The notes below the pieces were generated by a model that saw only the letters and a program-made list of their open reading frames with translations, was not told where the DNA came from and did not search any database. The position numbers and the translations under genes were made by a program. DNA of 60,640 nt from an uncultured Candidatus Saccharibacteria bacterium (GTDB lineage Bacteria > Patescibacteriota > Minisyncoccia > Phycocordibacterales > PALSA-1337). Each line of letters starts with the position of its first letter. Position 1 is the stretch's first letter. The stretch lies in the NCBI GenBank assembly GCA_964543075.1, contig CAZIVT010000003.1, forward strand, positions 1 to 60,640. The letters run 5' to 3'. This document shows positions 8,397 through 32,315 of the stretch, piece after piece.

Positions 8397-8414
8397 ATCC
8401 CGCCTTGGCGAGAT
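8397..8414. repeat. REP-like palindrome, family 1 (intergenic copy)
   Basis: ATCCCGCC-TT-GGCGAGAT, one mismatch to the consensus. Confidence 0.8.
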
Positions 8415-8439
8415 AGATTTTTCGCTGTAAACTAGCCCC

Positions 8440-9909
8440 ATGCCCCCCTCTGACTCCCAGAACAAAGCCCCTATAGCCGCTTCTTCGCTTCATCCGACTA
8501 TTTTCGTCATTTTCGGTATCACAGGGGATCTCGCTTCCCGTAAACTCATCCCAGCCTTGCTTGAGCTCTATTCCAAGCGGCTTTTACCGCAACGATTCTC
8601 CATCGTCGGATTTTCCCGGAGAGTCTTTACGCGCGAAGAATTCAGAGAATATATCCGTTCTCGCATGAATGTGAAGCTCGGTCAGTATCACGAGGAAGAC
8701 GTCAAGCACTTCCTCGACCATATGTCCTACGAACAGGGCATATTCGACGATGTCGGATCCTATGCGCGGTTGGCCGCCAAGCTCAAGGGTATCGACGAGC
8801 GTTGGGGCCAGTGTTCCAACAAGCTTTTCCATCTCTCGGTACCACCGACGCTCTACGAAGGCATCCTGCGCAATCTGGCAGGCTCAGGGCTGGCTGAGGC
8901 ATGCGATGATGGTAGCGGATGGACGCGCGTGCTCATCGAGAAGCCGTTCGGCAATGATATCGAGACCGCTCGTAGCCTAGACAAGCTCCTCGGGTCACTC
9001 TTCGAAGAGCAACAGATATTCCGTATCGACCACTACTTGGCCAAGGAAGTCTTGCAAAACATCCTGTCTTTCCGCTTTTCCAACTCGATGTTCGAACCTC
9101 TCTGGAATAGGCAGTACATCGATAAGGTCCACATCAAGCTATTCGAGAAAGCAGGCGTCGATGGGAGAGGCGCTTTCTATGATCCTGTCGGCGCGCTCAG
9201 GGATGTAGGGCAAAACCACATGCTGATGATGTTGTCGGCTATCGCCATGGAAGCTCCGCGGTCCTTTGCGGCTGATGGCATCCGCGCAGAGCGCGGACGA
9301 GTCCTGTCCAAGATCAGACCGATATCTCCACGATCTATGGGCAAGCAGGTAGTCCGTGGTCAGTATGCGGGCTATATGCGAGAACAGGGCGTCTCTCCGA
9401 CGTCGCAGACTGAGACCTATTTCCGGATCCAATCATTCGTCGATTCACCGCGATGGAAGGGCGTCCCATTCTATCTCGAGAGCGGCAAGGCGCTCGCGGA
9501 GTCCAAGGCGGAGATCGATGTGTACTTCAAGCAAAGTCAAAATTCAAAATTATCCCGCCAAGGTGGGACAGGCAAAAGTCAAAAAGAAGCGCAGGAAAAT
9601 CGACAAAATATTCTCACATTCCGTATTCAGCCCGACGAGGGCATCCGCGTGCGCTTCTTCGTGAAGGTTCCGGGATATGATTTCAAGACCGAGTCCAAGA
9701 CGCTCAAATTCAAGTACGCTGATTCGACATTTTCTGATGATATTCCGAACGATTATGAGCGTCTCATCCGCGATGCTTTCGTTGGCGATCAGACACTGTT
9801 CGCTTCCACAGATGAGATCATGGCCTCGTGGAAATTCATGATGCCGATACTCGATAATCTCAAGAATATCCCGCTGACGTTGTATGAGAAAGGGGCGGGG
9901 GAAGTGTAG
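8440..9909 (+). CDS. zwf: Glucose-6-phosphate 1-dehydrogenase, with in-frame palindrome insertion
   Basis: IFGITGDLASRKLIP, EKPFG, RIDHYLAKE, RDVGQNH, RIQPDEG. Confidence 0.95.
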   Translation: MPPSDSQNKAPIAASSLHPTIFVIFGITGDLASRKLIPALLELYSKRLLPQRFSIVGFSRRVFTREEFREYIRSRMNVKLGQYHEEDVKHFLDHMSYEQGIFDDVGSYARLAAKLKGIDERWGQCSNKLFHLSVPPTLYEGILRNLAGSGLAEACDDGSGWTRVLIEKPFGNDIETARSLDKLLGSLFEEQQIFRIDHYLAKEVLQNILSFRFSNSMFEPLWNRQYIDKVHIKLFEKAGVDGRGAFYDPVGALRDVGQNHMLMMLSAIAMEAPRSFAADGIRAERGRVLSKIRPISPRSMGKQVVRGQYAGYMREQGVSPTSQTETYFRIQSFVDSPRWKGVPFYLESGKALAESKAEIDVYFKQSQNSKLSRQGGTGKSQKEAQENRQNILTFRIQPDEGIRVRFFVKVPGYDFKTESKTLKFKYADSTFSDDIPNDYERLIRDAFVGDQTLFASTDEIMASWKFMMPILDNLKNIPLTLYEKGAGEV

Positions 9910-9912
9910 GGG

Positions 9913-9990
9913 AAATCCGAAATCCGAAATTCTAAATCCTAAATAAGCTCAAAATTCGAAATCCGAAATCGCGGCAGGTTTCGGTTTTTT
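9913..9990. repeat. AAATCCG-type heptamer tract
   Basis: aaatccg aaatccg aaattct aaatcct ... aaattcg aaatccg aaatcg directly after the zwf stop. Confidence 0.8.
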
Positions 9991-10023
9991 GTATATCAGA
10001 TGCATACATGCACAGCACGTTTT

Positions 10024-10113
10024 CTCGTAGCGACCGAGGACTGTCTGAGCGAGTAAAAAATACCGCGCTTCTGGGGCGCGGTATTTCACGAGCGAGTTCC
10101 GCAGGTCGCGGAG
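10024..10113. repeat. Structured repeat, family 2 (GCGAGTTCCGCAGGTCGCGGAG) with internal 11-bp hairpin
   Basis: 22 nt identical in inverted orientation to 25872..25893; AAATACCGCGC/GCGCGGTATTT hairpin. Confidence 0.75.
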
Positions 10114-10144
10114 AGAATACCGTGCTGTGCTCGGTGTATTTTTG

Positions 10145-10220
10145 TTATCCACAACCTCCATTGCACGACTTTTTTGGCAAAGTGGGATATAATATCCATC
10201 AAGTGGGATGAAGTGGTAAA
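10145..10220 (+). promoter_or_regulatory. mraZ promoter: DnaA box, -10 TATAAT and MraZ-type GTGG(G) direct repeats
   Basis: TTATCCACA 10145-10153; TATAAT 10188-10193; AAGTGGGAT at 10180 and 10201, AAGTGGT at 10211. Confidence 0.7.
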
Positions 10221-10260
10221 TTACTAGTAACATCACTTCACCTCCCGCGCACAATTACCA

Positions 10261-10704
10261 ATGCTCATCGGGGAATACAGGCACACTATCGACGACAAGA
10301 ACCGCCTGTCGCTTCCAGCCAAGTTCCGCAAGGAAATGGGGAAGCGCGTGGTGGTGACTCCCGGTCTGGACTCCTGCCTCTTCATCTTTACGGTGAATGA
10401 GTGGGAAAGGATCTCGAGTCGCTTGTCGGTGTCTGAATCATCGATGTTGCAGGCGGACAATCGCGGCTTCAACCGCTATCTCTTGGGCAGGGCGGTTGAA
10501 GTCGAGGTTGACGCAGTGGGACGCATGCTCATCCCTGAACGCTTGCGCCACCGCGCCAACCTCGAAGCCTCGGTCGTGTTCGTCGGCGTGAAGGATCGCG
10601 TCGAATTGTGGAATGAAGTTGCTTGGGACACCTATGTTGGCGATGTCGAATCCCGTGCGGATGATCTCGCCGAAAAACTGGGAAGAACCGAGCAATCTGC
10701 ATAA
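10261..10704 (+). CDS. mraZ: Division/cell wall cluster transcriptional repressor MraZ
   Basis: MLIGEYRHTIDDKNRLSLPAKFR, VEVDAVGRMLIP. Confidence 0.97.
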   Translation: MLIGEYRHTIDDKNRLSLPAKFRKEMGKRVVVTPGLDSCLFIFTVNEWERISSRLSVSESSMLQADNRGFNRYLLGRAVEVEVDAVGRMLIPERLRHRANLEASVVFVGVKDRVELWNEVAWDTYVGDVESRADDLAEKLGRTEQSA

Positions 10705-10708
10705 GCCC

Positions 10709-11608
10709 ATGGAGAGCGTCCATACACCAGTTCTTTTACACGAAGTCGTCGAAGCGCTTTCAGCCGTCACTCCAAGGCCCAACCTCGGATATCTCGACGG
10801 GACGCTTGGCGGTGCAGGACATGCTCTGGCCATATGCCAGGCATTTCAGGGCAAGCTGACTGTCATCGGCCTCGATCGTGACCCTGAAGCGGTCAGGAGG
10901 GCTGCGGAGACGCTCAGAGGCAAGGCGGACAAGGTCATCGTCGAACAGGCCGACTTTCGAGGCTTGGATGAGGTCCTAGAGCGTCACAGCATCATCGGGA
11001 TAGACCTTTTCCTCATCGATCTCGGTATATCTTCTGATGAACTCGAGCGGTCCGGCAGGGGATTCACATTTCAGCACGACGAGCCGCTGTTCATGACCAT
11101 GGGGGAACCTGCTTCATATCCGTTCACCGCGCATACGATAGTCAACGAGTGGGACGAGGAAGTCATCGCCAACATCATTTTTGGATACGGAGAAGAGAGA
11201 TACGCCCGTCGCATCGCCCGATCTATCGTCGGATATCGTTCGAAAAAGCCGATCGAGACGTCCGGTGAGCTCGCAGAGATCATCAAATCAGCTGTGCCAC
11301 CCTACTATCGCAGGTCCAAGATACATCCAGCCACGAGGACATTCCAGGCCATACGTATCGCCGTCAACGATGAGCTCAATGCATTGCGCGAGGGTCTCGA
11401 CAAGGGGTACAAGGCGCTCAGGAAGGACGGTCGGATGGCAGTAATCTCATTCCATAGCCTCGAAGATCGCATCGTCAAAGATTTTTATAAGAAGAAGGCC
11501 CAGGAAGGGGCGACCATCGTCACCAAGAAACCCATCACAGCTTCCGAACAGGAGAAAGCAGAGAATCCTCGGTCACGAAGCGCGAAACTCCGCATTCTCC
11601 ACAAGTGA
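10709..11608 (+). CDS. rsmH: 16S rRNA m4C1402 methyltransferase
   Basis: HTPVLLHEV, DGTLGGAGH, DLGISS, IHPATRTFQAIRIAVNDEL, SFHSLEDRIVK. Confidence 0.97.
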   Translation: MESVHTPVLLHEVVEALSAVTPRPNLGYLDGTLGGAGHALAICQAFQGKLTVIGLDRDPEAVRRAAETLRGKADKVIVEQADFRGLDEVLERHSIIGIDLFLIDLGISSDELERSGRGFTFQHDEPLFMTMGEPASYPFTAHTIVNEWDEEVIANIIFGYGEERYARRIARSIVGYRSKKPIETSGELAEIIKSAVPPYYRRSKIHPATRTFQAIRIAVNDELNALREGLDKGYKALRKDGRMAVISFHSLEDRIVKDFYKKKAQEGATIVTKKPITASEQEKAENPRSRSAKLRILHK

Positions 11609-11637
11609 CAAACAAACCAATCATTTCAATTCACACA

Positions 11638-11967
11638 ATGACTAGAACTATCGCACAGACATATCATATCGTTCGTGACTATCGCAGGATCATCGCGCTT
11701 GCGCTGATCGCCGCATGTGTCGCATCCGCGATGTTCTATGCTTCGGGGATCTATAGCGCCATCTCGTATAGCATGGCTATCCGTGTAGTCAACCAGGATA
11801 TCAGCAAGGCCATGTCTGATATCCAAGATCTCGATGGACAATATGCGAAGCTCTCTGCTTCTATCACGCCTGATCTGCTCCAGGCGCATGGGTTCGAAGT
11901 GGGCGATGTCAGCGCATTCATATCGCGTAGCGCATCCCTGGGCTTGGTACATGGCAATGGATTCTAA
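11638..11967 (+). CDS. FtsL-position single-TM coiled-coil protein
   Basis: Basic N-terminus, one TM helix, coiled coil; lies between rsmH and the PBP gene. Confidence 0.65.
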   Translation: MTRTIAQTYHIVRDYRRIIALALIAACVASAMFYASGIYSAISYSMAIRVVNQDISKAMSDIQDLDGQYAKLSASITPDLLQAHGFEVGDVSAFISRSASLGLVHGNGF

Positions 11968-13666: not shown

Positions 13667-13751
13667 AGATTTCCAGACCCTTCATTTTTTGCGGATTATG
13701 CGACATAATGGTGCCTACGTACTGAATTTCGGTGCATAGCGCCTCACTGAT

Positions 13752-15065
13752 ATGTTTTTCCTGAAACAACTCCTGATTGCCGTCCTCACTTTGGAATCTC
13801 GGCTTATCGTGGCGAAATACAAGCCATATATCGTGGCTGTGACTGGTAGCGTCGGCAAGACATCGACCAAGGATGCCATCTATGATGCACTCAAGAAGCA
13901 CGTCCCGTATGCGCGCAAGAGCGAGAAGAGTATGAATAGCGAGATCGGATTGCCGCTGACGGTGATCGGCGCTCCGACTGCGTGGCGGAGCTTCTCTGGT
14001 TGGATGAGCAATCTTCGCAAGGGGGCAGGTCTGATCCTGCGTCGACAAGAATATCCGGACACATTGATCCTAGAGATCGGCGCCGATCATCCAGGCGATA
14101 TCAGCTCGGTCGCGCGCTGGCTCCGTGCGGACATCGTTGTCGTCACTCAGGTGAGCGCCACGCCGGTGCATGTGGAGTTCTTCGCGTCTCCGGAGCAGGT
14201 CTTCGAGGAGAAGGCGAGCTTGGCAGGAGCGCTCAAGAAAGGTGGCACGCTCGTCCTCTCGGCTGACAATGACAAAGTGATGTCCATAGCGTCTCGTGTG
14301 GCTGACAAAGATGCTCGAGTCGTATCATTCGGTACTTCCGAAGGTGCTACTGTCAGGGGCTCGGGCGAACGCGTGATCTATGAAGGTGAGGGGACTTCGC
14401 GCATTCCTTCCGGGTGTGGATTCACCGTAACGGTCGAGGGTTCTGCTCATGAGATCGTTCTGTCCGGCATTGTCGGTATGCCGTACATGTTCCCGATATT
14501 GGCCGCTGTAGCCGTCGCGCGCGCCAAGGGAATCGCTCCGGACGTGGCTATCGGTGATCTTGCCTCCTATGCGGCTCCTCGAGGCCGCATGAATCTCATT
14601 CCCGGCGTGAATGGCTCGACGCTGATCGATGACACGTACAATTCATCGCCCGACGCCGCGCTGGCTGCGCTCCGAACCTTGCGAGATATCGAGATGCCAG
14701 GGTCTAGGATAGCGGTTCTCGGCGACATGCTGGAATTGGGCAAATACGCATCTGACGAGCATCGTCGTATCGGCACGGAAGTGGTCGCCCTGGGCATCGG
14801 CAAGCTCGTGACGGTCGGTCCGCGCTCGCGTCTGACCGCCCAGGCCGCCCGCGAGGCGGGTATGGATGCCGCCATGGTGACGTCATTCGACACATCTATC
14901 GAAGCTGGCGAACATCTGAAGTCGTCAGTCAAGGAAGGGGATGTTGTCTTGATCAAAGGCTCGCAGTCGATTCGCATGGAGAAGACGGTGGCGATCCTGA
15001 TGCGTGATCCGAGCAGAGCGGGGGAGCTTCTGGTCAGGCAGGAGCCGGAGTGGCTAAAAAAATGA
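13752..15065 (+). CDS. murF: UDP-MurNAc-tripeptide--D-Ala-D-Ala ligase
   Basis: VTGSVGKTSTK, DDTYNSSP, LGDMLELG, KGSQSIRME. Confidence 0.92.
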   Translation: MFFLKQLLIAVLTLESRLIVAKYKPYIVAVTGSVGKTSTKDAIYDALKKHVPYARKSEKSMNSEIGLPLTVIGAPTAWRSFSGWMSNLRKGAGLILRRQEYPDTLILEIGADHPGDISSVARWLRADIVVVTQVSATPVHVEFFASPEQVFEEKASLAGALKKGGTLVLSADNDKVMSIASRVADKDARVVSFGTSEGATVRGSGERVIYEGEGTSRIPSGCGFTVTVEGSAHEIVLSGIVGMPYMFPILAAVAVARAKGIAPDVAIGDLASYAAPRGRMNLIPGVNGSTLIDDTYNSSPDAALAALRTLRDIEMPGSRIAVLGDMLELGKYASDEHRRIGTEVVALGIGKLVTVGPRSRLTAQAAREAGMDAAMVTSFDTSIEAGEHLKSSVKEGDVVLIKGSQSIRMEKTVAILMRDPSRAGELLVRQEPEWLKK

Positions 15066-15079
15066 AAAGTTGGAATTTC

Positions 15080-15097
15080 ATCCCGCCTTGGCGGGAT
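15080..15097. repeat. REP-like palindrome, family 1
   Basis: ATCCCGCC-TT-GGCGGGAT, perfect stem. Confidence 0.85.
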
Positions 15098-15180
15098 AGA
15101 AAAGTGAGAAGCCGATCGGCCCCAGTGAGATTGAAAATTTCCAAAAATGTGTTATATTTCTCTGGTCGCGAATACACCCA

Positions 15181-15221
15181 GTTTTGACTTTCCCGCCTCG
15201 GCGGGATAAATTTGAGTTTTG
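15181..15221 (-). repeat. REP-like palindrome, family 1, inverted, in the tRNA-Glu leader
   Basis: Reverse complement CAAAACTCAAATTTATCCCGCC is identical over 22 nt to the valS copy. Confidence 0.85.
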
Positions 15222-15235
15222 CTTTCGCGAAGCGC

Positions 15236-15310
15236 GGCCCTTTCGTCTAGCCCGGTCTAGGACGGCGCCCTCTCACGGCGCAAACACGGGTTCAAATCCC
15301 GTAGGGGTCA
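15236..15310 (+). tRNA. tRNA-Glu(CTC)
   Basis: Anticodon arm GCGCC-CTCTCAC-GGCGC; ACGGG-TTCAAAT-CCCGT T-arm. Confidence 0.93.
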
Positions 15311-16625: not shown

Positions 16626-16632
16626 GCCTGCA

Positions 16633-18462: not shown

Positions 18463-20877
18463 ATGAACCAGAAATTCCTCAAGCCGTACGACTCCCAAGC
18501 CACCGAAGGCCGCATCTATGAACTTTGGGAACAGAGCGGCTATTTCGATCCTGATCGACTACCTGAGCGCAATCAGCGGGGAGAGCCTTTTTCTGTCGTG
18601 CTGCCTCCACCCAATGTCACGGGTGTTCTCCATATGGGGTCCGCGCTGATGCTGGCTATCGAGGACATCATGGTCAGGTACGCGCGCATGCAGGGCAAGC
18701 GAGCCGTCTGGATACCCGGCACCGATCATGCCGCCATCGCCACGCAAGCGGTCGTGGAGAAGAAGATCCAGAAAGAGGAGGGCAAATCCCGTCACGATCT
18801 CGGTCGCGATGAGCTTTTGGGGCGCATCGGATCTCATGTCTCCGAGACTCACGATGTCATCGTCGCGCAGATGCGCGAGATGGGCGCTTCCATCGACTGG
18901 TCGCGCGAGGCGTTCACGCTCGATGAGGAGAGAAGCATGGCTGTCAGGACGGCGTTCAAGAAGATGTATGACGACGGACTCATATATCGTGGTCACAGAG
19001 TGGTCAATTGGGATCCCAAGAGTCAGACCACTATATCCGACGATGAGATCGTCTATGAGCCGCGCAAGGCCAAACTGTATACCTTTAAATATTCCAAAGA
19101 TATCCCGATCTCTATTTCCACTACTCGGCCGGAGACCAAGCTCGGCGACACGGCCATCGCCGTCCATCCCGACGATGAGCGGTATCAGGCCTATATCGGC
19201 AAAGAATTCTCGACGACGTTCGCCGGCGAGCCGATAACGCTCCGGGTGATCGCGGATAGGGATGTAGACAAGGAGTTCGGCACCGGCGCGCTCGGTGTGA
19301 CTCCGGCGCACTCGTCGATCGACTGGGAGATGGCACAGAGGCATGATCTGCCGCTCAAGCAGGTCATAGATGAATACGCGCGGATGACCGTCGGTTTCGA
19401 CGGCAAGGACGCTCCACATGCGATCAAAGGCGCGAAGACTGCCGAAGCCCGCGAGGCCGTCGTCGAGTGGTTGCGCGCCGAGGGATTGCTCGAAAAAGAG
19501 GAGGAGATCGATCAAAATGTCGCGACCGCTCAACGGAGCGGCGCCATCATCGAGCCCCTACCCAAACTGCAGTGGTTCGTAGCCGTCAATTCACAGTTCA
19601 CAATTCACAATTCCCAAATTCCAGGCATCGAATCGGGAAGCAAAACTACGCTCAAGGAGCTCATGAAGCAAGCGGTCTCCTCGGGAGCCATCGAGGTCAT
19701 CCCGGATCGTTTCGAAAAAGTGTACTTCAACTGGATAGATAATCTGCGCGATTGGTGCATCTCGCGCCAGATCTGGTACGGGCACAGGATACCGGTGTGG
19801 TATAGAGAAACTCAAAACTCAAATTTATCCCGCCTTGGCGGGATAGGCAAAACTCAAAAATCCGAAACCCCACTCGTCCGCCGTAGCTCAACCGAAGGGA
19901 GAAACGAAGGTAGAAATCCGAAATCCGAAACAGACGAAGAGATATTCGTCGGCTTGGAGGCGCCGGAAGGGGAAGGATGGGTGCAGGACGAAGACACGCT
20001 CGACACGTGGTTCTCCTCGGGACTGTGGACATTCTCGACGCTCGGATGGCCCCGCTTCGCCGACACGGCTACCCGAGGCAAGCCCGGCAAGGAGAATGAT
20101 CTGGCCAATTTCCATCCGACGACCATCCTCGAGACCGGCTCGGACATCCTCTTCTTCTGGGTGGCGCGCATGATCCTGATGAGCGGCTATCTGCTCGGCG
20201 ATGTGCCGTTCCGCACGGTCTATCTCCACGGCCTGGTCCGTGATACCAAGAACCGCAAGATCTCCAAATCGCTCGGCAACAATATCGATCCCGTAGACAT
20301 GATCGCCACATACGGCGCCGACGCGGTGCGCATGTCGCTCGTCGTCAGCGTCGGTCCCGGCAACGACAGCAAGGTCGACGAGCAGAAGATCAAAGCGTAT
20401 AAGCTCTTCTCTAACAAGCTCTGGAACGTCGCCCGATTCGTCATTTCGGCTGCCGAAGGCGAGCGGTACGATCGCGAGAAGGGGGAGACGGCTGTGAGCG
20501 CCGAGAAGATCGGCTTCGATCCTGATTTTCGCGGATGGCACGAAGCGGACAAGGCGCATTTGGAGAGGCTGAACCTCTTGATCGCGGAGATCACCGGAGA
20601 GATGGATGAATACAAATTCTATCTGGTAGGAGAGAAGCTCTATCACTATGCGTGGCATGAGCTGGCTGACGTCATCCTCGAGGAGAGCAAACCGATCATC
20701 GGTGGCGCAGATACAGCGGCTACCGCATCTCGCATCCAGTTCTTGCTTCACGCGCTCCATACGCTCCTGCGCGCGCTCCACCCGTTCATGCCCTACCTCA
20801 CCGAGGAGATCTGGTCGGAGTTCAGAACGGGCACGATGCTCATAGTCGAGGAGTGGCCTCACGCTTCGGCTGAGTGA
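18463..20877 (+). CDS. valS: Valine--tRNA ligase (no C-terminal coiled coil; in-frame repeat insertions)
   Basis: PPPNVTGVLHMG, DHAAIATQ, WCISRQIWYGHRIPVW, KISKSLGN. Confidence 0.97.
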   Translation: MNQKFLKPYDSQATEGRIYELWEQSGYFDPDRLPERNQRGEPFSVVLPPPNVTGVLHMGSALMLAIEDIMVRYARMQGKRAVWIPGTDHAAIATQAVVEKKIQKEEGKSRHDLGRDELLGRIGSHVSETHDVIVAQMREMGASIDWSREAFTLDEERSMAVRTAFKKMYDDGLIYRGHRVVNWDPKSQTTISDDEIVYEPRKAKLYTFKYSKDIPISISTTRPETKLGDTAIAVHPDDERYQAYIGKEFSTTFAGEPITLRVIADRDVDKEFGTGALGVTPAHSSIDWEMAQRHDLPLKQVIDEYARMTVGFDGKDAPHAIKGAKTAEAREAVVEWLRAEGLLEKEEEIDQNVATAQRSGAIIEPLPKLQWFVAVNSQFTIHNSQIPGIESGSKTTLKELMKQAVSSGAIEVIPDRFEKVYFNWIDNLRDWCISRQIWYGHRIPVWYRETQNSNLSRLGGIGKTQKSETPLVRRSSTEGRNEGRNPKSETDEEIFVGLEAPEGEGWVQDEDTLDTWFSSGLWTFSTLGWPRFADTATRGKPGKENDLANFHPTTILETGSDILFFWVARMILMSGYLLGDVPFRTVYLHGLVRDTKNRKISKSLGNNIDPVDMIATYGADAVRMSLVVSVGPGNDSKVDEQKIKAYKLFSNKLWNVARFVISAAEGERYDREKGETAVSAEKIGFDPDFRGWHEADKAHLERLNLLIAEITGEMDEYKFYLVGEKLYHYAWHELADVILEESKPIIGGADTAATASRIQFLLHALHTLLRALHPFMPYLTEEIWSEFRTGTMLIVEEWPHASAE

Positions 20878-22962: not shown

Positions 22963-24267
22963 ATGTTCAGAGACCTATTCAGAAAGCGCGTCTATCTCGA
23001 CTATGCCGCGCTGACGCCGATCGATCCGCGTGTCGTCCGAGAGATGGCGGCGTATTCGACGATCACGTATGGCAATCCGTCCGCTCTCTATCGCGAAGGC
23101 GTCGCCGCTCGCGCGGCGGTCGATGGCGCGCGCGCATCGGTAGCCGGTTTCATCCATGCTCATCCAGATGAGATCGTGTTCACCAGCGGCGGGACGGAGG
23201 CCAACGCTCTGGCGCTCGAAGGTGCGGTGCGAGCGGCTCGCACGAGCGGTATCGATCGCCCGCACATCGTCGTCTCGGTCGTCGAGCACTCGTCGATATC
23301 GGAGACGGCCGAGAAGCTCGAGGTTGATGGATGTGATGTGTCGCGCATCTCTGTCGACCGTTCAGGCATCGTCGATCTCGATGAGCTCGAGAAGGCGATC
23401 GGCGAGCATACGGTCATCGTATCCATCCAGATGGTCAACAATGAGACGGGCGTCATCCAGCCGATCAAGGAGATCGCCAAGATCATCAGGAACGCACGGA
23501 AGCGATCCGGCGATCCGGCAGAGGGACCATCCAGGGATGGATCCACTCGGTCGAACTATCCATTGCTCCATACCGATGCCGCGCAGGCGCTGTATCAGGA
23601 GATATCCGTCGAAAAGCTGGGCATCGACCTGTTGACGCTCGATGCGAGCAAGATGTATGGGCCGCGCGGGATCGGGTGTCTCTATGTGAAGCGACGCACT
23701 CCCATCGAGCCGATCATCCGAGGGGGAGGGCAGGAGAGGGGATTCAGATCAGGCACGGAGAATGTTCCGGCGATGATGGGCTTCGCCAAGGCGGTGGACA
23801 TCCTGAAGATTGATCTCGCCCATGGCGGGATTGACCCCGCCTGTGGCGGGGTTGAAAGATTGAAAGAAGGAAAGATTGAAGGATCAAGAGGAGGATTACA
23901 CAAAGGGACAGTTGGACGGCTGCAAGGATTAAAGGATGAAATGATTGAAGGACTCAAAAAGATCAGTCCGGACATCGTCGTGAACGGGGAAGGGGCTGTC
24001 GTATCCCCGCACATTCTAAATGTCTCGATCCCCGGTATGAATCCTGCCGATGGTGGGATAGATAATGAGCTTTTCGTCTTGAGGCTCGATGCCAAGGGGA
24101 TCGCATGTTCGACCAGGAGTTCATGCCTTCGTGACGAAGATGAATCATATGTCCTTCGGGCGATGGGGGTGGATGGTCGTGCATCAGTCAGATTTTCATT
24201 TGGGCGATGGACGACGATGAAAGACATCAGGAGGGCGCTTGCGGCGGTAGAACGTAGTCGTTTTTGA
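22963..24267 (+). CDS. Cysteine desulfurase (IscS/NifS class V aminotransferase) with in-frame insertions
   Basis: VYLDYAALTP, FTSGGTEAN, HTDAAQ, DASKMYGP, RSGTEN, CSTRSSC. Confidence 0.92.
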   Translation: MFRDLFRKRVYLDYAALTPIDPRVVREMAAYSTITYGNPSALYREGVAARAAVDGARASVAGFIHAHPDEIVFTSGGTEANALALEGAVRAARTSGIDRPHIVVSVVEHSSISETAEKLEVDGCDVSRISVDRSGIVDLDELEKAIGEHTVIVSIQMVNNETGVIQPIKEIAKIIRNARKRSGDPAEGPSRDGSTRSNYPLLHTDAAQALYQEISVEKLGIDLLTLDASKMYGPRGIGCLYVKRRTPIEPIIRGGGQERGFRSGTENVPAMMGFAKAVDILKIDLAHGGIDPACGGVERLKEGKIEGSRGGLHKGTVGRLQGLKDEMIEGLKKISPDIVVNGEGAVVSPHILNVSIPGMNPADGGIDNELFVLRLDAKGIACSTRSSCLRDEDESYVLRAMGVDGRASVRFSFGRWTTMKDIRRALAAVERSRF

Positions 24268-25822: not shown

Positions 25823-25849
25823 TCTTCACCCTCCACTCATCTGGATATA

Positions 25850-25945
25850 CCCCCACACGACACGACATCCCCTCCGCGACCTGCGGAACTCGCTTCGCTC
25901 AGAAGACATCCTCGATCACTTCGAGGATGTCATGTCGTGTGGTGA
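25850..25945. repeat. Nested inverted repeat containing a family-2 repeat
   Basis: CCACACGAC/GTCGTGTGG outer stem; GACATCCTCGA/TCGAGGATGTC inner hairpin; family-2 22-mer at 25872-25893. Confidence 0.7.
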
Positions 25946-25998
25946 TACGTCTGCACTTATCCACTCGCCTCATATTCTCACTATGGTATCATTAAGCC

Positions 25999-28971
25999 AT
26001 GAAACCTGATTCATCTCGGTCATTCCTGCATAGCAAACCTTTCACCTACCTCGCGCTCTCCGCCCTCATCCTCAAGGCGTTCGTCTCCACCGATCGAGCC
26101 GTACCTCCGGCGGCCCCCATCTCACGCGCCGACGATCCCAACACCCGCTCCATATCCACACTCCCCATCCCGTCTCGTACCTACCCGGGTCTCCTCTCCA
26201 TACCCACTGCCCATGCCGCGGAAGGGGATGAGGTCATCCCCCAGCGTTCTCTCTTGGCCGCCGTCGGAGACGGCGTCAAGTCCGTCTGGGGTCGCTTCAC
26301 TGCGCTTTTCACCCCGCGTACCGTCTCAGAGGTCGTCACTGAGGACATCCTGCCATATCCGACCGCTCCCGTCATCCCGGCCACATCCACCGAGCCTGTC
26401 ATCGTCAGAGAATACGTCCCCACTCCCGTCCAGCAGATCCCCGTCTTCACCGGCCTCACCTACGCCGACGTCGATCGTCGTATCGCGGCCGCCCTCGCCT
26501 CCATCCCTCAGGGCACCGCCTCCGTCGATCTCACTCCTGTCTATGACTACATCAGGAGACAGGCCAATGTCACGGCCGAATCAGCATCCCGCAATTCCAA
26601 GGGCATCGCCGAAGACACCGTCACCGACGGCTCCCAGTGTTTATCGGCCATATCCCTCTCCCTCACCACCCCTCTTGCCGTTTCCTCGGGAGGCACCGGT
26701 ACCTCCACCTCCGCCTATGGCAAGCTCCTCCTCGGCAATGCCACCGGAGGCTACAACCTCGTCGCCACCTCATCCCTGGGTATCTCCGGGGGGGGCTTCG
26801 ATGTGAGTGAGCTCAATACGCTGGCTACGATCGCAGTAGGTGACTCCAATGTCGTCTCAGGTATCTATGCGAGTGCGTTTGGGTACAACAACACCGCTTC
26901 AGGTCAAAACTCCTCCGCCTCTGGTTACCTCAACACCGCTTCAGGTGATTTCTCCTCCGCCTTTGGCTTCAACAACACCGCTTCAGGTCAAAACTCCTCC
27001 GCCTCTGGCTTCTACAACACCGCTTCATGTCTAGGCTCCTCCGCCTCTGGTTACTCCAACACCGCTTCAGGATACTACTCCTCCGCCTTTGGCTTCAACA
27101 ACACCGCTTCAGGTCAAAGCTCCTCCGCCTTTGGCTTCTACAACACCGCTTCAGATAGTCTCTCCTCCGCCTTTGGCTACTACAACACCGCTTCAGGATA
27201 CTACTCCTCCGCCTTTGGCTACCGCAACACCGCTTCAGGGTATTGCTCCTCCGCCTCTGGTTACCTCAACACCGCCGCCGCCCTCAACTCCTCCGCCTTC
27301 GGCCGCTCCAACTTCACCGGCACAGGTGGTCTGGCATCCATACAGGTAGGTGTGCTCAACAACTCTACAGGTGGGACGCTCAATACTACCACCGGTGCAA
27401 TTACAGGAACACCGTCCGCCTGCACCACGGTGGGTAGACTGACCACGGCTGTGGGTGTGTGCAACAAGACGGCAGGTAATCTTGCGAGTGCGTTTGGGTA
27501 CAACAACACCGCTTCAGGGTATCGCTCCTCCGCCTTTGGCTCCCGCAACACCGCTTCAGGGTGTCTCTCCTCCGCCTCTGGTTACCTCAACACCGCTTCA
27601 GGTCAAAACTCCTCCGCCTCTGGTTACCTCAACACCGCTTCAGGTCAAAACTCCTCCGCCTTTGGCTACTACAACACCGCTTCAGGGTGTCTCTCCTCCG
27701 CCTTTGGCTACTACAACACCGCTTCAGGGTGTCTCTCCTCCGCCTTCGGATCCTGCTTCACCAATGCCACCAGCTCCTCAGTAGCCATAGGCACCTGTGG
27801 AGGCTGGCTCAACGTCCAATCGAACGGCTGTCTCACCACCGCCACCGGAGCCTATCTCACCACCGGAGGCACCTGGTCCAACGCGTCCTCGCGTGATCTC
27901 AAGGAAAACTTCACCACCCTCGATCCCCAGGACATCCTCTCCAAGATATCAGCCCTCCCCATCACGCGCTGGAACTACAAGATAGAGGATGACTCCGTCA
28001 CCCATATCGGACCTGTCGCCCAGGACTTCTACAACATCTTCAACACAGGCGGCTCCGATACCTCTATATCCACCATAGACCCCGCAGGTGTCGCCCTCCT
28101 CGGCATCCAGGGCCTCTCCACCCGTGTCGATCGTCTCAATGCCTCATCTACCGCTTCCACCCTGTCTCTGTCATCACTGTCCAAGAGCTTGGATGCGCAG
28201 AGGCTCAGCATCGAAGGTGTCCTGAATTCTGTCTCTTCTACCGCCTCTACGACTGCCGCCGCGATCGCCTCCTTGGATGTGAAGATAGGTCAATTGGCCG
28301 CACGGATAGGGGATATCGAATCCGGTGCGTCTACGACTACCGAGACGATCATCGTCCAGTCCGATGACCAGAGCATCATCTCCTACCTCGCCTCCTTCGG
28401 CGCGCGAGTCATAGATGGCGTCATCCACTTCGTCGATGTCGTCGTCGAGCGCCTCACGGTCGGATCGCTGACGATCAAGAATGAGGCCGATGTCAGCCAG
28501 ACCGGATTCGTCATCTATGATCGCGCCACCCATCGTCCCATCTGCGTCTATTTCGAGAACGGCGTGCAGAAGACTGCTCCAGGAGAATGTGACGACGAGG
28601 ATGTCGTCTCCGATGAAAACATCCCCGACGATACGAATAGTGCAGAAGAAGACGATCAACCGGACGTCGTCGATGGTGAAACAAAGGTGGACCAAGATAG
28701 CGATCAGGCCACTTCTACGCCTGCCGTACAGGAAGAGGCATCAACATCTGACGAGGAAGATGAACGAGCCGCTTCTGATCAAGAGCAGGGAACTGGCGAC
28801 ACCCAGGACAACTCCGAAGATGTCTCCGATGACCAGAATGTTCAAGCAGACGATCAAATAGCCGATGAATCCGTCGATACCCAAGAAGAGATTGTCGAAG
28901 ACGCAGAAACTCCTCCTGCCCAAGAAGAGTCTCCGTCTGCTGATGTGCAGGAAAACTCGGAAGGCAACTGA
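25999..28971 (+). CDS. Trimeric fibre/adhesin: N-terminal membrane/signal segment, YadA-head-like 14-aa repeats, S74 autocleaving chaperone, coiled coil, acidic tail
   Basis: 18 ASGxxSSA(F/S)GxxNT repeats; WSNASSRDLKEN...WNYK...HIGPVAQDF; D/E-rich last ~140 aa. Confidence 0.82.
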   Translation: MKPDSSRSFLHSKPFTYLALSALILKAFVSTDRAVPPAAPISRADDPNTRSISTLPIPSRTYPGLLSIPTAHAAEGDEVIPQRSLLAAVGDGVKSVWGRFTALFTPRTVSEVVTEDILPYPTAPVIPATSTEPVIVREYVPTPVQQIPVFTGLTYADVDRRIAAALASIPQGTASVDLTPVYDYIRRQANVTAESASRNSKGIAEDTVTDGSQCLSAISLSLTTPLAVSSGGTGTSTSAYGKLLLGNATGGYNLVATSSLGISGGGFDVSELNTLATIAVGDSNVVSGIYASAFGYNNTASGQNSSASGYLNTASGDFSSAFGFNNTASGQNSSASGFYNTASCLGSSASGYSNTASGYYSSAFGFNNTASGQSSSAFGFYNTASDSLSSAFGYYNTASGYYSSAFGYRNTASGYCSSASGYLNTAAALNSSAFGRSNFTGTGGLASIQVGVLNNSTGGTLNTTTGAITGTPSACTTVGRLTTAVGVCNKTAGNLASAFGYNNTASGYRSSAFGSRNTASGCLSSASGYLNTASGQNSSASGYLNTASGQNSSAFGYYNTASGCLSSAFGYYNTASGCLSSAFGSCFTNATSSSVAIGTCGGWLNVQSNGCLTTATGAYLTTGGTWSNASSRDLKENFTTLDPQDILSKISALPITRWNYKIEDDSVTHIGPVAQDFYNIFNTGGSDTSISTIDPAGVALLGIQGLSTRVDRLNASSTASTLSLSSLSKSLDAQRLSIEGVLNSVSSTASTTAAAIASLDVKIGQLAARIGDIESGASTTTETIIVQSDDQSIISYLASFGARVIDGVIHFVDVVVERLTVGSLTIKNEADVSQTGFVIYDRATHRPICVYFENGVQKTAPGECDDEDVVSDENIPDDTNSAEEDDQPDVVDGETKVDQDSDQATSTPAVQEEASTSDEEDERAASDQEQGTGDTQDNSEDVSDDQNVQADDQIADESVDTQEEIVEDAETPPAQEESPSADVQENSEGN
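26854..27762 (+). repeat. 42-nt coding tandem repeats (11 units 26854-27315, 7 units 27469-27762)
   Basis: Core ctcctccgcct.tgg.t.c..caacaccgcttcagg repeated in frame. Confidence 0.92.
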
Positions 28972-29014
28972 TACGCCTACCGAATCAGATAAAATATATA
29001 GATAAAGATGACGA

Positions 29015-29950: not shown

Positions 29951-30858
29951 GGTCGTATGTGGGGGGTATCTAGAGTATCCACGATATCAACAGGCGTGAA
30001 TGACGATCGCCATTCCTTGATGAAAGGGAACGGTTGGTCGGCCGTAGATGCGTATTCAGGATGGTCTTCGGCATGTTCCCTGAATGCGTCCGATATACGA
30101 GCTGTTATAGCAGAATGCAGGGGATATCCCGTGACCTCCTGATCAGTGCCGATCCAGAGCACCGTGGAGGGGAGACCGAGCGCGGCGGCCATTCCCTGGA
30201 TCGCCCCATCGACGAGGAGCCGTCTAGAGACGTGTGCGAGCGCCGCGGCGTAGTGTCGCGCATTGGACATCGTCAGGCGCGCGGCTCCGACGATCGCCGG
30301 ATCGTCGTCTCTCCGTATCTGTAGGATCGCGTATCCGCGCTCGCGCATCAGGTCGGCTGTCTTCTGGGCGACGACCATCGGCATCGTGCGGCGCCATCGG
30401 CTCTGGTAGGGCCATCCGGCGGGACCGTCGGATATTGAGAAGAGCGCGGATGGCCTACCTTCCGTGAGACGAGAGACGATCGTCTTGCCGATCTCGTCTT
30501 CGCGGCGAGTCAGGGTCAGCTCCGGCGCAGGACCATCCCAAGGCACGCCACAGAGACGGCACCAGATCTCCGTCAGGTGACCGCGGCCATGCAGGAAATC
30601 ATCCGTCTCGTAGGGGTCCAAGCGGAAGATCAGCGTATCTCGTTCGCGGATGTAGTCCTCGTAGAAGTAGGGAGTCGATCCGGCCGTATATACCCGGTAG
30701 ACGCGCGGGTTGTGTAGCCAGATATGAGGATTGCGGCTGATGATGACGATCTTGCGATCGGGGTGCGCCTTGGAGATAGCACGGACGACGGCCGTGGCGG
30801 CCAGATCCTTGTCCTCGGATCCATGGCATTCGAAGAGGGCGAATTCCGAACGGTTCAT
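29947..30858 (-). CDS. Second, more divergent GT9-like paralog
   Basis: ATAVVRAISKAHPD, WLHNPRV and HLTEIWCRLCGVPWDGP shared with the neighbour. Start 30858 from TATAAT 6 nt upstream. Confidence 0.72.
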   Translation of the reverse strand: MNRSEFALFECHGSEDKDLAATAVVRAISKAHPDRKIVIISRNPHIWLHNPRVYRVYTAGSTPYFYEDYIRERDTLIFRLDPYETDDFLHGRGHLTEIWCRLCGVPWDGPAPELTLTRREDEIGKTIVSRLTEGRPSALFSISDGPAGWPYQSRWRRTMPMVVAQKTADLMRERGYAILQIRRDDDPAIVGAARLTMSNARHYAAALAHVSRRLLVDGAIQGMAAALGLPSTVLWIGTDQEVTGYPLHSAITARISDAFREHAEDHPEYASTADQPFPFIKEWRSSFTPVDIVDTLDTPHIRP

Positions 30859-31018
30859 GGGGCAATTATAGGTATGAATCACTGGCGGCGCAAATCGAGG
30901 ATCAAGGTCGCACCTCGAGGTGCGACCTTGATCGGCTCTTGCCACCCGCTCTGATACTTTGGTATAATCATGCGCAGTACAGCGAACTGTACGATTACGA
31001 ATAAATCCTTTTTCGATT

Positions 31019-31372
31019 ATGCAGAAAGACCAAGAGTTCCTCGAATATGTCATCAAGTCGCTCGTAGACAATCCTGATCAGGTCAAGGTATCTCGCACGG
31101 TAGATGAGATGGGTGTGCTCCTCACGCTCGATGTCGGCGCCGCCGATATGGGCAAGATCATCGGTCGTCAGGGCAATACCGCCAAGGCTGTCCGCACGCT
31201 CCTGCGCGTCGTCGGCATGAAGAACAACAGCCGCGTCAATCTCAAGATCAATGAGCCGGTCGGTGGCCTCAAGGATCCGGACAGGATCGCCCAGGGCGAC
31301 GCCGCGATGCCGCTCGTCACCCCCAATTCCAAGACGGTGGATGAAGCGATGGCGGATCTCAAGTTGGAGTAA
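31019..31372 (+). CDS. khpA: KH-domain RNA-binding protein
   Basis: DMGKIIGRQGNTAKAVRTLL (GxxG KH motif). Confidence 0.92.
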   Translation: MQKDQEFLEYVIKSLVDNPDQVKVSRTVDEMGVLLTLDVGAADMGKIIGRQGNTAKAVRTLLRVVGMKNNSRVNLKINEPVGGLKDPDRIAQGDAAMPLVTPNSKTVDEAMADLKLE

Positions 31373-31496
31373 ATAGAAGATAGCAAATAGAAGAGATCAA
31401 AAAGTCGGGCGAAGGCTCGATTTTTTGAATGGTGACATTTTTCACAAATCGTGGTAAAGTAATGTGCCACGATTTTTTGTCGACTATAAAAGCAGT

Positions 31497-32315
31497 ATGA
31501 CCACCTATCACCTCATAACTCTCTTCCCGGAATCCACCGAGTCGTATCTCGACGCCTCTATTTTGAAGCGTGCCCGGGAGAAGGGGATTATCGATATCAA
31601 GTATTACAATCCGAGGGATTTTGTCGGAAACTCAAATTCATCCCGCCAAGGCGGGAAACTCAAATTCATCCCGCCAAGGCGGGACAGGCAAAAATCAAAA
31701 CTGACATACCAGGATCGGCGGGTGGATGATAGGCCGTATGGGGGCGGGCCGGGGATGGTGATCGAGGCACTGCCGGTCATTCGCGCGATTGAAGCAGCGG
31801 TAGGGAAGAAAATCCGAAATCCGAAATCTGAAATCCGAAACAAATCCAAAATCATCCCGCCAGGGCGGGACAGGCGAAATTCAATAGCCAAGAAAGCGCA
31901 GGTCAAGATCGTCTTTTTCTCGCCGGCAGGGAAGCAGTTCACCAATGAGATGGCAGATAGCTTCAAGAAATATACCGATATCGTCTTCGTCTGCGGCCGC
32001 TATGAGGGTATCGACGCTCGTGTGAAGAAAGCGTTTCCAATGATCGACATATCGGTCGGACCGTATGTGCTCACCGGCGGGGAACTGCCGGCTATGATCA
32101 TGATCGATACCATCACTCGGCGCATCCCGGGAGTCCTCGGCGACAAATTGTCCGTAGAAGAGGAGCGCGTGGCCAGTCCCGATGTCTACACTCGTCCCGA
32201 AGTCATCGAATATAAGGGCAAGAAGCATCGAGTACCCAAGATCCTTCTGAGTGGTCATCATGCCAAGATGGATGAATGGAAAAAGGCGAAGAAAATAAAA
32301 AATAAAAACAGTTAA
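31497..32315 (+). CDS. trmD: tRNA (guanine37-N1)-methyltransferase with two in-frame repeat insertions
   Basis: ITLFPE, VDDRPYGGGPGM, CGRYEGIDAR, SVGPYVLTGGELPAM. Confidence 0.95.
   Translation: MTTYHLITLFPESTESYLDASILKRAREKGIIDIKYYNPRDFVGNSNSSRQGGKLKFIPPRRDRQKSKLTYQDRRVDDRPYGGGPGMVIEALPVIRAIEAAVGKKIRNPKSEIRNKSKIIPPGRDRRNSIAKKAQVKIVFFSPAGKQFTNEMADSFKKYTDIVFVCGRYEGIDARVKKAFPMIDISVGPYVLTGGELPAMIMIDTITRRIPGVLGDKLSVEEERVASPDVYTRPEVIEYKGKKHRVPKILLSGHHAKMDEWKKAKKIKNKNS

What the first reader, a model, noticed from the sequence alone, without database searches (positions are those of the whole stretch)
8397..31884. REP-like palindromic mini-element colonising essential genes in frame (Rickettsia-RPE-like)
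Seen: the core (A)TCCCGCC-N2/3-GGCGGGA, usually followed by (C/T)AGGC and flanked by AAA(C/G/T)TCA / AAATCCG heptamer tracts, occurs 10 times. Copies are at 8397, 15080 and 15191 (intergenic, the last inverted) and at 9553 (zwf), 19826 (valS), 23813 and 23834 (desulfurase), 31641, 31669 and 31855 (trmD). The valS and 15191 copies share 22 identical nt including flank. All 7 coding copies keep the reading frame and are read in different frames (SRQGG, SRLGG, IPPRRD, IPPGRD, LAHGG, PACGG). Established: Rickettsia palindromic elements insert in frame into surface loops; REPs are spread by RAYT transposases. Inference: a composite palindrome-plus-heptamer selfish element adds new peptide loops to essential CPR enzymes. 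No transposase is in this window.
Basis: partly seen in the sequence, partly recalled or inferred. Interest (0 to 1): 0.85.

Follow-up and report, generated by a model that had tools for sequence, protein, structure and literature searches.

The report
In-frame hairpin repeats in essential genes
A tiny-genome (CPR/Paceibacteria) bacterium carries about 20 near-identical copies of a 50-base hairpin-plus-heptamer repeat, most of them sitting in frame inside essential genes as extra floppy loops, much like the "selfish DNA in genes" known from Rickettsia but smaller, modular and in a new lineage.

Summary
TCCCGCC-N2/3-GGCGGGA occurs 6 times exactly in the window (0.01 expected) and 21 times in the 0.75-Mb genome. 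It is absent from 18 congeners and from about 185,000 species genomes.

The full unit is about 52 nt: an (AAAMTCA)n tract, TTYA, the hairpin, CAGGCAAAA, then another tract. There are about 19 sites. Thirteen lie inside conserved genes (ValS, IleS, TrmD twice, MurA, LigA, Zwf, RecO and others). All 13 are sense-oriented, and all three reading frames are used.

Orthologues lack the inserts, shown for TrmD, ValS, Zwf, MurA and the desulfurase. The sites are hypervariable loops that are predicted to be disordered. The antisense strand carries stop codons and looks like an intrinsic terminator. That orientation occurs only between genes.

The element is modular. ValS and a TraD-like gene share a composite of about 110 nt made of module A, an array and a second module D. 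Module D also occurs in one congener, at other loci.

The only transposase-like gene is a RAYT. It is flanked by a different hairpin that is mostly extragenic. The Rickettsia-RPE-like reading is therefore supported, but RAYT mobilisation is not. How the element spreads remains unknown. I rate it a new variant of a known kind.

The parts
8397..8414 (.). Degenerate hairpin copy (ATCCCGCCTTGGCGAGAT). It is intergenic, 26 nt upstream of the zwf start, and is preceded by a GATTGAAA octamer tract at 8337-8372.
9533..9583 (+). Type-A element in zwf, read in frame B (QSQNSKLSRQGGTGKSQK). It lies in a hypervariable loop between YFK and QNILTF.
   Evidence: nhmmer E=2e-13. Frame. Comparison with a PDB G6PD. 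Comparison with 6 congeners.
15076..15103 (.). Hairpin ATCCCGCCTTGGCGGGAT, 15 nt after the stop codon of the Mur-ligase gene (13752-15065). Intergenic.
15179..15225 (-). Type-A element in reverse orientation. On the + strand it reads as hairpin plus TAAATTTGAGTTTTGCTTT, which is terminator-like. It lies between the Mur-ligase gene and the tRNA at 15236-15310.
19807..19859 (+). Type-A element in valS, frame B (ETQNSNLSRLGGIGKTQK). It forms the 5' part of a 126-nt insert.
   Evidence: nhmmer E=6e-17. Congeners read WYKE-KDIFVG with nothing in between.
19860..19938 (+). The rest of the valS insert: AAATCCG linker, module D (ACTCGTCCGCCGTAGCTCAACCGAAGGGAG...) and a (GAAATCC)n tract. Read as SETPLVRRSSTEGRNEGRNPKSETDE.
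   Evidence: The same A-linker-D composite occurs in the TraD-like gene at C5:32825-32930.
23813..23884 (+). Type-B hairpin doublet (ATCTCGCCCATGGCGGGAT and ACCCCGCCTGTGGCGGGGT, 21 nt apart) plus a TTGAAAGA octamer tract, in the cysteine desulfurase. Read as DLAHGGIDPACGGVERLKEGKIEG.
   Evidence: About 28 extra residues relative to PDB IscS/NifS. A near-identical doublet occurs in GatA at C2:34898-34968.
31627..31700 (+). Tandem doublet of type A (28-nt period) in trmD variable site 1. The first hairpin is read in frame B (NSNSSRQGG) and the second in frame C (KLKFIPPRRDRQKSK).
   Evidence: AF2 pLDDT is 43-58 here.
31810..31887 (+). (AAATCCG)n heptamer tract followed by a type-A hairpin in trmD variable site 2. 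Read as KIRNPKSEIRNKSKIIPPGRDRRNSIA.

Best explanation
This is a lineage-specific family of short, non-autonomous palindromic repeats that behaves like the Rickettsia palindromic elements.

Anatomy. The conserved module is about 33 nt: TTYA-TCCCGCC-NN-GGCGGGA-CAGGCAAAA. It is embedded in A-rich heptamer tracts (AAAMTCA)n, giving a unit of about 52 nt. It can be chained with other modules into mosaics of 75-125 nt.

Copies (shown). Copies have been made at unlinked loci.

Why these copies survive (inferred). The genome is about 86-90% coding, so most landings fall inside genes. The copies that survive are those that:
- lie in indel-tolerant surface loops;
- keep the reading frame;
- present the A-rich strand as the sense strand. 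That strand has no stop codon in any of the three frames and encodes K/Q/N/S/T/G/P-rich peptides.

Fate in genes. The inserts are simply transcribed and translated as disordered loops. This is inferred from the intact ORFs and was not verified by RNA or protein data. There is no peptide-level function, because the same DNA is read in all three frames.

The opposite orientation. It has stop codons in 2 of 3 frames and forms a GC hairpin followed by a U-rich tract. It is therefore excluded from genes and found only between genes. There it probably acts as an intrinsic terminator (inferred).

Copying mechanism (not shown). My preferred guess is copying helped by homology of the flanking word arrays and by stalling at the hairpin, that is, template switching or ectopic gene conversion. 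The alternative is a hairpin-specific HUH enzyme acting in trans.
For: - Over-representation and near-identity. There are 6 exact hairpins in the window against 0.01 expected, 21 exact genome-wide, and about 20 nhmmer hits to the 52-nt model. Mean identity over the 34-nt core is 88% across 16 copies.
- Lineage specificity. There are no copies in 18 congeners or 12 genomes of the same order. About 185,000 species genomes gave none except one Streptomyces chance hit. One hit came from 241 M metagenome records.
- Empty sites in orthologues: TrmD sites 1 and 2; ValS, with a clean 126-nt insert at the DNA level; Zwf; the desulfurase; MurA.
- The sites are hypervariable loops that carry independent inserts in other species. 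They are predicted to be coil with pLDDT 43-58.
- Orientation. All 13 genic sites are sense-oriented, and frames A, B and C are all used. Intergenic sites are 2 sense and 4 antisense. Fisher p=0.004; against the 3:1 expectation from open frames, p=0.024.
- The terminator scan flags the valS and zwf copies on the antisense strand. Hairpin free energy is about -14 kcal/mol.
- Modularity and copying of larger units. ValS and the TraD-like gene share an A-linker-D composite of about 110 nt. LigA and a methyltransferase share a 76-nt doublet. The desulfurase and GatA share a type-B doublet.
- Module D occurs in congener G002 at three different, intergenic loci.
Against: - No mobilising enzyme is identified, no target-site duplication is seen at the ValS junctions, and no terminal inverted repeats are present. 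'Mobile' therefore rests on the distribution of copies only.
- No strain closer than about 74-84% protein identity exists in the databases searched. Precise empty sites and the recency of insertion therefore cannot be defined.
- Translation of the inserts is inferred from intact ORFs.
- In Zwf the element replaces about 9 loop residues instead of being purely added.
- The genome is a roughly 86%-complete MAG, so a cognate enzyme could lie in the missing part.
Confidence: 0.8

Rival explanations
1. Classical REP/RAYT system. On this reading the TCCCGCC hairpin is a REP that is cut and pasted as single-stranded DNA by a RAYT (Y1 HUH) transposase. That enzyme would be either the one encoded on contig C2, acting in trans, or a cognate one in the unassembled 14% of the genome.
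For: - One intact RAYT-like gene is present (PF01797, 32.7 bits). Its YHV..RG, HFH and Y..HLNP motifs are visible.
- Its own REP also occurs in frame inside genes: MnmA N-terminus QGRPAYAGLPCG, TruB at window 40814-40849, and inside the RAYT gene itself.
- At C4:16577 a TCCCGCC hairpin sits between the two outer arms of a RAYT-type REP doublet.
- The hairpin has a constant 5' TTYA tag, which recalls the tetranucleotide sites of IS200/IS605.
Against: - The RAYT gene is flanked by CGCAGG-GTAGA-CCTGCG doublets, not by TCCCGCC hairpins.
- That REP is 67% extragenic, whereas type A is 68% intragenic.
- Type-A doublets are direct, with a 28-nt period, and are not inverted REPINs.
- The hairpin lacks a GTAG-type head. 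No second Y1 gene and no TnpB were found.
Confidence: 0.25
2. Transposase-independent spread. Hairpin modules would be copied between loci by template switching or ectopic gene conversion, guided by the A-rich heptamer or octamer arrays that flank them. Colonisation would then take two steps: the array first, the hairpin later.
For: - The genome is full of 7- and 8-nt tandem arrays: 249 period-7 and 89 period-8 TRF hits at a low threshold.
- At TrmD site 2 several related species carry array-type peptides (KIRNPKSEIR-like) without any hairpin.
- Every type-A and type-B hairpin sits between same-sense arrays. Left and right array units match in about 5-6 of 10 copies.
- Doublet periods are 28 nt and 21 nt, both multiples of 7.
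- The loop is TT or AA in about equal numbers with no intermediates, as expected from hairpin-mediated strand switching.
- No TSD is seen and no transposase was found.
Against: - At ValS and at TrmD site 1 the congeners have no array at the site, so homology-guided entry is not evident there.
- The matching of flank units is only weakly above chance.
- No direct evidence for such a process exists in this lineage.
Confidence: 0.3
3. The hairpin is primarily a selected functional signal, and not selfish or neutral DNA. Candidates are a terminator or RNA-stability element, a protein-binding site, or a DNA-uptake-type sequence. The genic copies would then be there because of that function.
For: - Four of six intergenic copies are oriented as hairpin plus U-tract directly after a gene.
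- Genic copies would terminate antisense transcripts.
- Several copies abut tRNA genes.
Against: - There are only about 20-50 copies, and none in 18 congeners that have the same gene set. No conserved cellular function can depend on the hairpin.
- In genes the sense RNA lacks the U-tract.
- Sites inside genes are exactly the indel-tolerant loops, which is what tolerance would predict and function would not.
Confidence: 0.1
4. The inserts are not expressed as protein. They would be removed from the RNA or bypassed by the ribosome, as with the mitochondrial 'byp' elements of Magnusiomyces. Alternatively, the intragenic copies are MAG assembly artefacts.
For: Short GC hairpins in coding genes are bypassed in one known system (my own knowledge of Lang et al. 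2014; not checked here). No RNA or protein data are available.
Against: - Every genic copy is stop-free and keeps the frame, in three different phases. That would be unnecessary if the inserts were skipped.
- Total insert lengths are multiples of 3 (126 nt in ValS).
- Both flanks of each insert belong to the same gene, in the correct order and frame. This argues against chimeric assembly.
Confidence: 0.03

Closest known systems
Rickettsia palindromic elements (RPE; Ogata et al. 2000 Science 290:347, as summarised in PMC10969869)
   Same: - Short palindromic repeats with no transposase of their own.
- Many copies inserted in frame in unrelated housekeeping genes, as well as between genes.
- The inserts sit at positions compatible with the protein fold.
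- The host has a reduced genome.
- The mobilisation mechanism is unknown.
   Different: - The unit is about 50 nt (33-nt core) against about 100-150 bp for RPE.
- It is built from a GC hairpin plus heptamer word arrays and is assembled into mosaics.
- It is read in all three frames, so there is no conserved peptide. According to the review, each RPE family encodes a conserved peptide.
- It occurs in a different phylum (Patescibacteria) and shows no sequence relationship.
- It is restricted to a single species-level lineage.
REP / BIME / REPIN elements with RAYT (TnpA-REP) transposases of Proteobacteria
   Same: - A GC-rich hairpin of 16-20 nt.
- Mosaic arrangement with other short motifs, as in BIMEs.
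- Possible terminator activity.
- A RAYT gene exists in this same genome.
   Different: - It is mostly intragenic (13 of 19 sites).
- It is low-copy.
- Doublets are direct, not inverted.
- It has a 5' TTYA tag and no GTAG head.
- The genome's RAYT is flanked by a different hairpin family.
Terminator-like small repeats (pneumococcal SPRITE, Neisseria Correia elements) and intragenic ERIC/BOX elements (listed in PMC10969869)
   Same: One strand reads as an intrinsic terminator. Copies occur after genes. Some copies form in-frame fusions.
   Different: No TIRs or TSD were found. It is far smaller. The intragenic copies are the majority and have a fixed orientation.
Mobile GC-rich hairpin clusters in mitochondrial protein genes (yeast GC clusters; placozoan and sponge hairpin elements, e.g. 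PMC7813641; Magnusiomyces byp elements)
   Same: Very short GC hairpins that invade AT-rich or compact genomes, including coding regions, without an identified enzyme.
   Different: Those are organellar. Some are bypassed and not translated. They have no heptamer-array flanks. This comparison rests largely on my own knowledge and was not tested here.

Membership tests
Rickettsia palindromic elements (RPE) | A short interspersed palindromic repeat present in many near-identical copies | tested here: met
   About 20 copies of a 52-nt model. The core is 88% identical across copies. Hairpin free energy is about -14 kcal/mol, z=-3.2.
Rickettsia palindromic elements (RPE) | In-frame insertion into unrelated protein-coding genes, absent from orthologues | tested here: met
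   There are 13 genic sites. Empty sites were shown in TrmD, ValS, Zwf, MurA and the desulfurase.
Rickettsia palindromic elements (RPE) | Inserts located where the fold tolerates them (surface loops) | tested here: met
   The TrmD inserts are coil with pLDDT 43-58. The sites are hypervariable in 42 homologues. This was tested structurally for TrmD only.
Rickettsia palindromic elements (RPE) | Each family encodes a conserved peptide (one preferred frame), and the sequence belongs to RPE-1 to RPE-10 of Rickettsia | tested here: not met
   The same DNA is read in three frames: KLKTQIYPALAGQAK, TQNSNLSRLGGTGKTQK and NSKLKFIPPRRDRQNSK. The element is found only in this Paceibacteria genome. It is therefore an analogue, not a member.
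REP/RAYT (REPtron) | A cognate RAYT gene flanked by copies of the same hairpin | tested here: not met
   The only Y1 gene (C2:27160-27747) is flanked by CGCAGG-GTAGA-CCTGCG doublets.
REP/RAYT (REPtron) | Predominantly extragenic location, with inverted doublets (REPINs) | tested here: not met
   Thirteen of 19 type-A sites are intragenic. Doublets are direct with a 28-nt period. The genome's true REP is 33/49 extragenic and forms inverted doublets.
REP/RAYT (REPtron) | A conserved tetranucleotide head (GTAG-type) next to the hairpin | tested here: inconclusive
   Type A has a constant TTYA 5' of the stem, not GTAG. Whether this is a recognition site is unknown.
MITE | Terminal inverted repeats, a target-site duplication, and a parental IS with a DDE transposase | tested here: not met
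   The flanks are direct word arrays, not TIRs. No TSD is seen at the ValS junctions. No DDE_Tnp_1 or TnpB was found in the genome. Other DDE families were not searched.
Intrinsic-terminator-derived repeat (SPRITE-like) | A GC hairpin followed by a T-run on the functional strand, located at gene ends | tested here: inconclusive
   The antisense strand matches the terminator pattern. Four of 6 intergenic copies follow a gene in that orientation. Termination itself was not testable.

The most novel reading that the evidence does not exclude
Paceibacteria may possess a transposase-independent, modular 'loop-building' system.
- A-rich heptamer or octamer word arrays would first seed indel-tolerant loops and spacers.
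- Interchangeable GC-hairpin modules (A, B, C, D here, and different ones in each species) would then be copied into those arrays. The mechanism would be hairpin-stalled template switching or array-guided conversion.
- The result would be mosaics of up to about 125 nt, translated in any frame.

This would be a new route by which selfish DNA spreads. It would also be a main source of the lineage-specific insertions seen in essential CPR proteins.
Probability: 0.3. Interest if true: 0.8.

Novelty: new variant of a known kind. Interest (0 to 1): 0.62.

Why it matters
In-frame colonisation of essential genes by selfish palindromic DNA has essentially one textbook case, the Rickettsia RPEs.

Here the same outcome appears in an unrelated, free-standing lineage with a reduced genome. 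The unit is far smaller, it is modular, and it is demonstrably read in all three frames. That cleanly separates tolerance from peptide function.

It offers an explanation for many of the odd low-complexity insertions that annotators see in CPR housekeeping proteins. It also warns that such inserts can mislead alignments, phylogenies and structure predictions.

The genome contains a bona fide RAYT/REP pair that behaves differently, being mostly extragenic. This gives a natural within-genome contrast for asking what makes a hairpin repeat 'gene-compatible' and how it is copied.

My four full-text searches found no paper describing this in CPR. That is not proof that none exists.

Tried and rejected
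- Closer relatives for precise empty sites. The 5.8-billion-protein search found nothing above 74% identity to TrmD. The genome-contig scans found nothing relevant.
- The single metagenome hit (L034, an IspH gene of a low-GC organism, read ESRQGGTGK) differs from a solved IspH by only about 4 residues at that spot. It cannot be called an insertion. It is left unexplained.
- RAYT linkage. Checked and rejected as the simple explanation.
- TnpB and DDE_Tnp_1. Both absent.
- TSD search at the ValS junction. None found.
- TTNA tag on both sides of the hairpin. It is present on one side only and only for type A, so there is no TSD-like symmetry. The TTGA|hairpin|TTGA pattern of type B is explained by the hairpin sitting inside an ATTGAAA array.
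- Rfam. It reports only tRNAs in the window.
- Chance or composition. Rejected by shuffles.
- The copy at 39957 (CCCGCCAAGGCGGA, in the 1233-aa gene) has no element flanks. I treat it as a chance partial match.

Full report
**1. Observation**

The core TCCCGCC-N2/3-GGCGGGA occurs six times exactly in the 60.6-kb window, against 0.01 expected from dinucleotide-preserving shuffles. The looser CCGCC-N2-4-GGCGG occurs eight times against 0.17 expected.
- the one-mismatch copies at 8397 and 9553;
- the two variant stems in the desulfurase at 23813 and 23834.

The window is contig C3 of a 752,824-bp, 30-contig, roughly 86%-complete genome with 52% G+C. Its closest protein relatives are named Patescibacteria, Paceibacterota or Taylorbacteria by their sources.

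Genome-wide there are 21 exact hairpins. With one mismatch or fewer there are 54, against 2-13 (about 8) in shuffles.

**2. Anatomy**

Aligning the copies shows a much longer conserved unit, which I call type A: AAACTCAAAACTCAAATTTA-TCCCGCC-TT/AA-GGCGGGA-CAGGCAAAA(C/A)TCAAAA.
- An nhmmer model finds about 20 copies at about 19 sites.
- The 34-nt core is on average 88% identical between copies.
- The forward strand is A-rich and T-poor and has no stop codon in any frame. It reads KLKTQIYPALAGQAKIK, TQNSNLSRLGGTGKTQK or NSKLKFIPPRRDRQNSK.
- The reverse strand has stops in two of three frames.
- The hairpin folds at about -14 kcal/mol.

The same CCCGCC/GGCGGG stem occurs with other flanks:
- Type B sits in ATTGAAA(G) arrays and forms doublets 21 nt apart. 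It is found in the desulfurase, GatA, DnaG and RNase H.
- Type C is ACACCCCGCC..GGGGTGTGGCT and is intergenic.

A further module, D (ACTCGTCCGCCGTAGCTCGACCGAAGGGAGG), is flanked by AAATCCG arrays. It lies in ValS, LigA, MnmA and a TraD-like ATPase.

Larger composites have been copied as units:
- ValS and the TraD-like gene share A-linker-D over about 110 nt. A 1-nt indel in the linker puts module D in different frames in the two genes.
- LigA and a SAM-methyltransferase share a 76-nt A-plus-second-hairpin doublet.
- The desulfurase and GatA share the type-B doublet.

The genome as a whole is rich in 7- and 8-nt tandem word arrays.

**3. Where the copies sit**

Thirteen of about 19 type-A sites lie inside long ORFs: RecO, ValS, IleS (a decayed copy), a transketolase C-terminal subunit, MurA, LigA, a GT1 glycosyltransferase, an RluD-type pseudouridine synthase, a SAM-methyltransferase, TrmD (two sites), Zwf and the TraD-like protein.
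- In every case the A-rich strand is the sense strand, and all three phases are used.
- Of six intergenic copies, four are in the opposite orientation directly downstream of a gene. There the transcript would read hairpin plus UAAAUUUGAGUUUUG.
- Several intergenic copies abut tRNA genes.
- Genic 13:0 against intergenic 2:4 gives Fisher p=0.004. Against the 3:1 ratio expected if only stop-free frames mattered, p=0.024.
- The consensus terminator scan independently flags the valS and zwf copies as terminator-like on the antisense strand.

**4. Are they insertions?**

- TrmD. Fourteen relatives and 41 further homologues lack both inserts. The basal protein is about 227-231 aa, against 272 aa here.
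  - Both sites are hypervariable loops that carry unrelated inserts in other species.
  - At site 2 several species have heptamer-array peptides (KIRNPKSEIR-like) without a hairpin. This suggests the array preceded the hairpin there.
- ValS. Two congeners read ...WYKE|KDIFVG.... The window has 42 extra residues (126 nt) exactly between these, with no obvious target duplication.
- Zwf. The element occupies a hypervariable loop. It is 8-9 residues longer than in the nearest congener and in a solved G6PD.
- Desulfurase and MurA. Both show extra residues at the element relative to solved homologues: about 28 in the desulfurase and about 17 in MurA.
- Structure. An AlphaFold2 model of TrmD built on the 42-sequence alignment gives coil and pLDDT 43-58 for both inserts.

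**5. Distribution**

- The exact hairpin is absent from 18 same-genus and 11 of 12 same-order genomes. One same-order genome has a single copy.
- The hairpin with its 3' flank is absent from about 185,000 species representatives, apart from one Streptomyces chance match.
- It has a single hit in the metagenome collection, in an IspH gene of a low-GC organism. That hit is not clearly an insertion.
- Module D has three related copies in one congener (G002). All three are intergenic and at loci different from those here. This is the best evidence in hand that these modules change location.

**6. Mechanism**

Shown:
- Copies arose from one another.
- Genic copies are in frame, sense-oriented and located in permissive loops.
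- The antisense strand is terminator-like.

Inferred:
- The inserts are translated as disordered loops.
- The orientation bias reflects selection against stop codons and against intragenic termination.
- Intergenic antisense copies act as terminators.

The copying mechanism is unresolved.
- The genome's one RAYT-like gene is intact but is bracketed by a different hairpin. That hairpin has 49 copies, 33 of them extragenic, and forms inverted doublets.
- The RAYT's own REP also occurs in frame in MnmA, TruB and the RAYT gene itself. Hairpin repeats in frame are therefore a general trait of this genome.
- No TnpB or DDE_Tnp_1 was found.
- I slightly favour array-guided, hairpin-promoted template switching or conversion (0.3) over trans-mobilisation by a Y1 enzyme (0.25). 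The reasons are: the arrays pre-exist at some sites; no TSD is seen; doublet periods are multiples of seven; and the loop flips between TT and AA without intermediates.

**7. Comparison and novelty**

Functionally this is the Rickettsia-RPE phenomenon (PMC10969869). It fails membership on sequence, on size and on the 'conserved peptide' criterion. It also fails the REP/RAYT and MITE definitions.

Four full-text searches found no description of it in CPR/Patescibacteria. Earlier notes of this scan describe sister observations on other contigs of this genome: GatA hairpins, a pyrG heptamer tract, and the RAYT locus. I re-derived the overlapping facts myself.

I rate it a new variant of a known kind and of moderately high interest. 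The main weaknesses are the lack of RNA, protein or population data and the unknown mobilisation mechanism.

Noticed in passing
window 40814-40849 (in TruB gene 40538-41305): An inverted doublet of the RAYT-cognate REP (CGCAGGGTAGACCTGCG-TA-CGCAGGTCTACCCTGCG) lies in frame inside the TruB pseudouridine synthase gene. The same doublet is translated as QGRPAYAGLPCG at the N-terminus of MnmA (C4:32536-32571).
   Followed up: partly
L034 1109-1135 (metagenome contig Ga0105106_10078837): A 27-nt stretch identical to the element core (TCCCGCCAAGGCGGGACAGGCAAAAGG) sits in frame (ESRQGGTGK) in an IspH gene of an unrelated low-GC organism. It has no heptamer flanks. It differs by only about 4 residues from a solved IspH, so whether it is an insertion, a transfer or a coincidence is unresolved.
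   Followed up: partly
window 19587-19617 and 20052-20084 (valS): ValS carries two more lineage-specific pieces. One is a CAATTCA heptamer tract read as FTIHNSQ. The other is an 11-residue insert, RFADTATRGKP, that is absent from two congeners.
   Followed up: no
genome contigs C2:~35500 (GatA) and C6:~13550 (DnaG): Another shared in-frame module, read as SP(A/T)S(A/T)PLREASAGKQFP, occurs in both GatA and the DnaG primase. It is a further repeat family in essential genes.
   Followed up: no
window 25999-28971: This is a 990-aa ORF with a strongly negative GC skew (-0.30 in 26-28 kb). It has YadA-head repeats and a Peptidase_S74 intramolecular chaperone domain, so it is a phage-tail-fibre-like surface fibre.
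   Followed up: partly
window 56000-60640: G+C drops from about 0.54 to 0.41. This may be foreign or island DNA.
   Followed up: no
genome contig C7:4551-8219 (IleS): The 1223-aa IleS appears to contain an embedded segment resembling a histidine-phosphatase domain (…MMRHGEAEQN…DSPLWLL…). It also has several heptamer-array peptides (SEIRNPKSEI, INSKLKSQNSK, LKLKTQNSKL).
   Followed up: no
whole genome (e.g. C1:61006-61083, C2:39599-39686): Intergenic spacers often hold inverted pairs of 7- or 8-nt tandem word arrays that would fold into long AT-rich hairpins. There are 249 period-7 and 89 period-8 TRF hits at a low threshold. Their origin is unexplained.
   Followed up: partly
L007 1900-2080 (G010 TrmD): A congener has an unrelated 48-residue insert at TrmD site 2. 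It is built from other palindromic words (…LQRTSRSELRRAG…) plus AAATNCG arrays. The same loops are therefore colonised independently, by different modules, in different species.
   Followed up: partly
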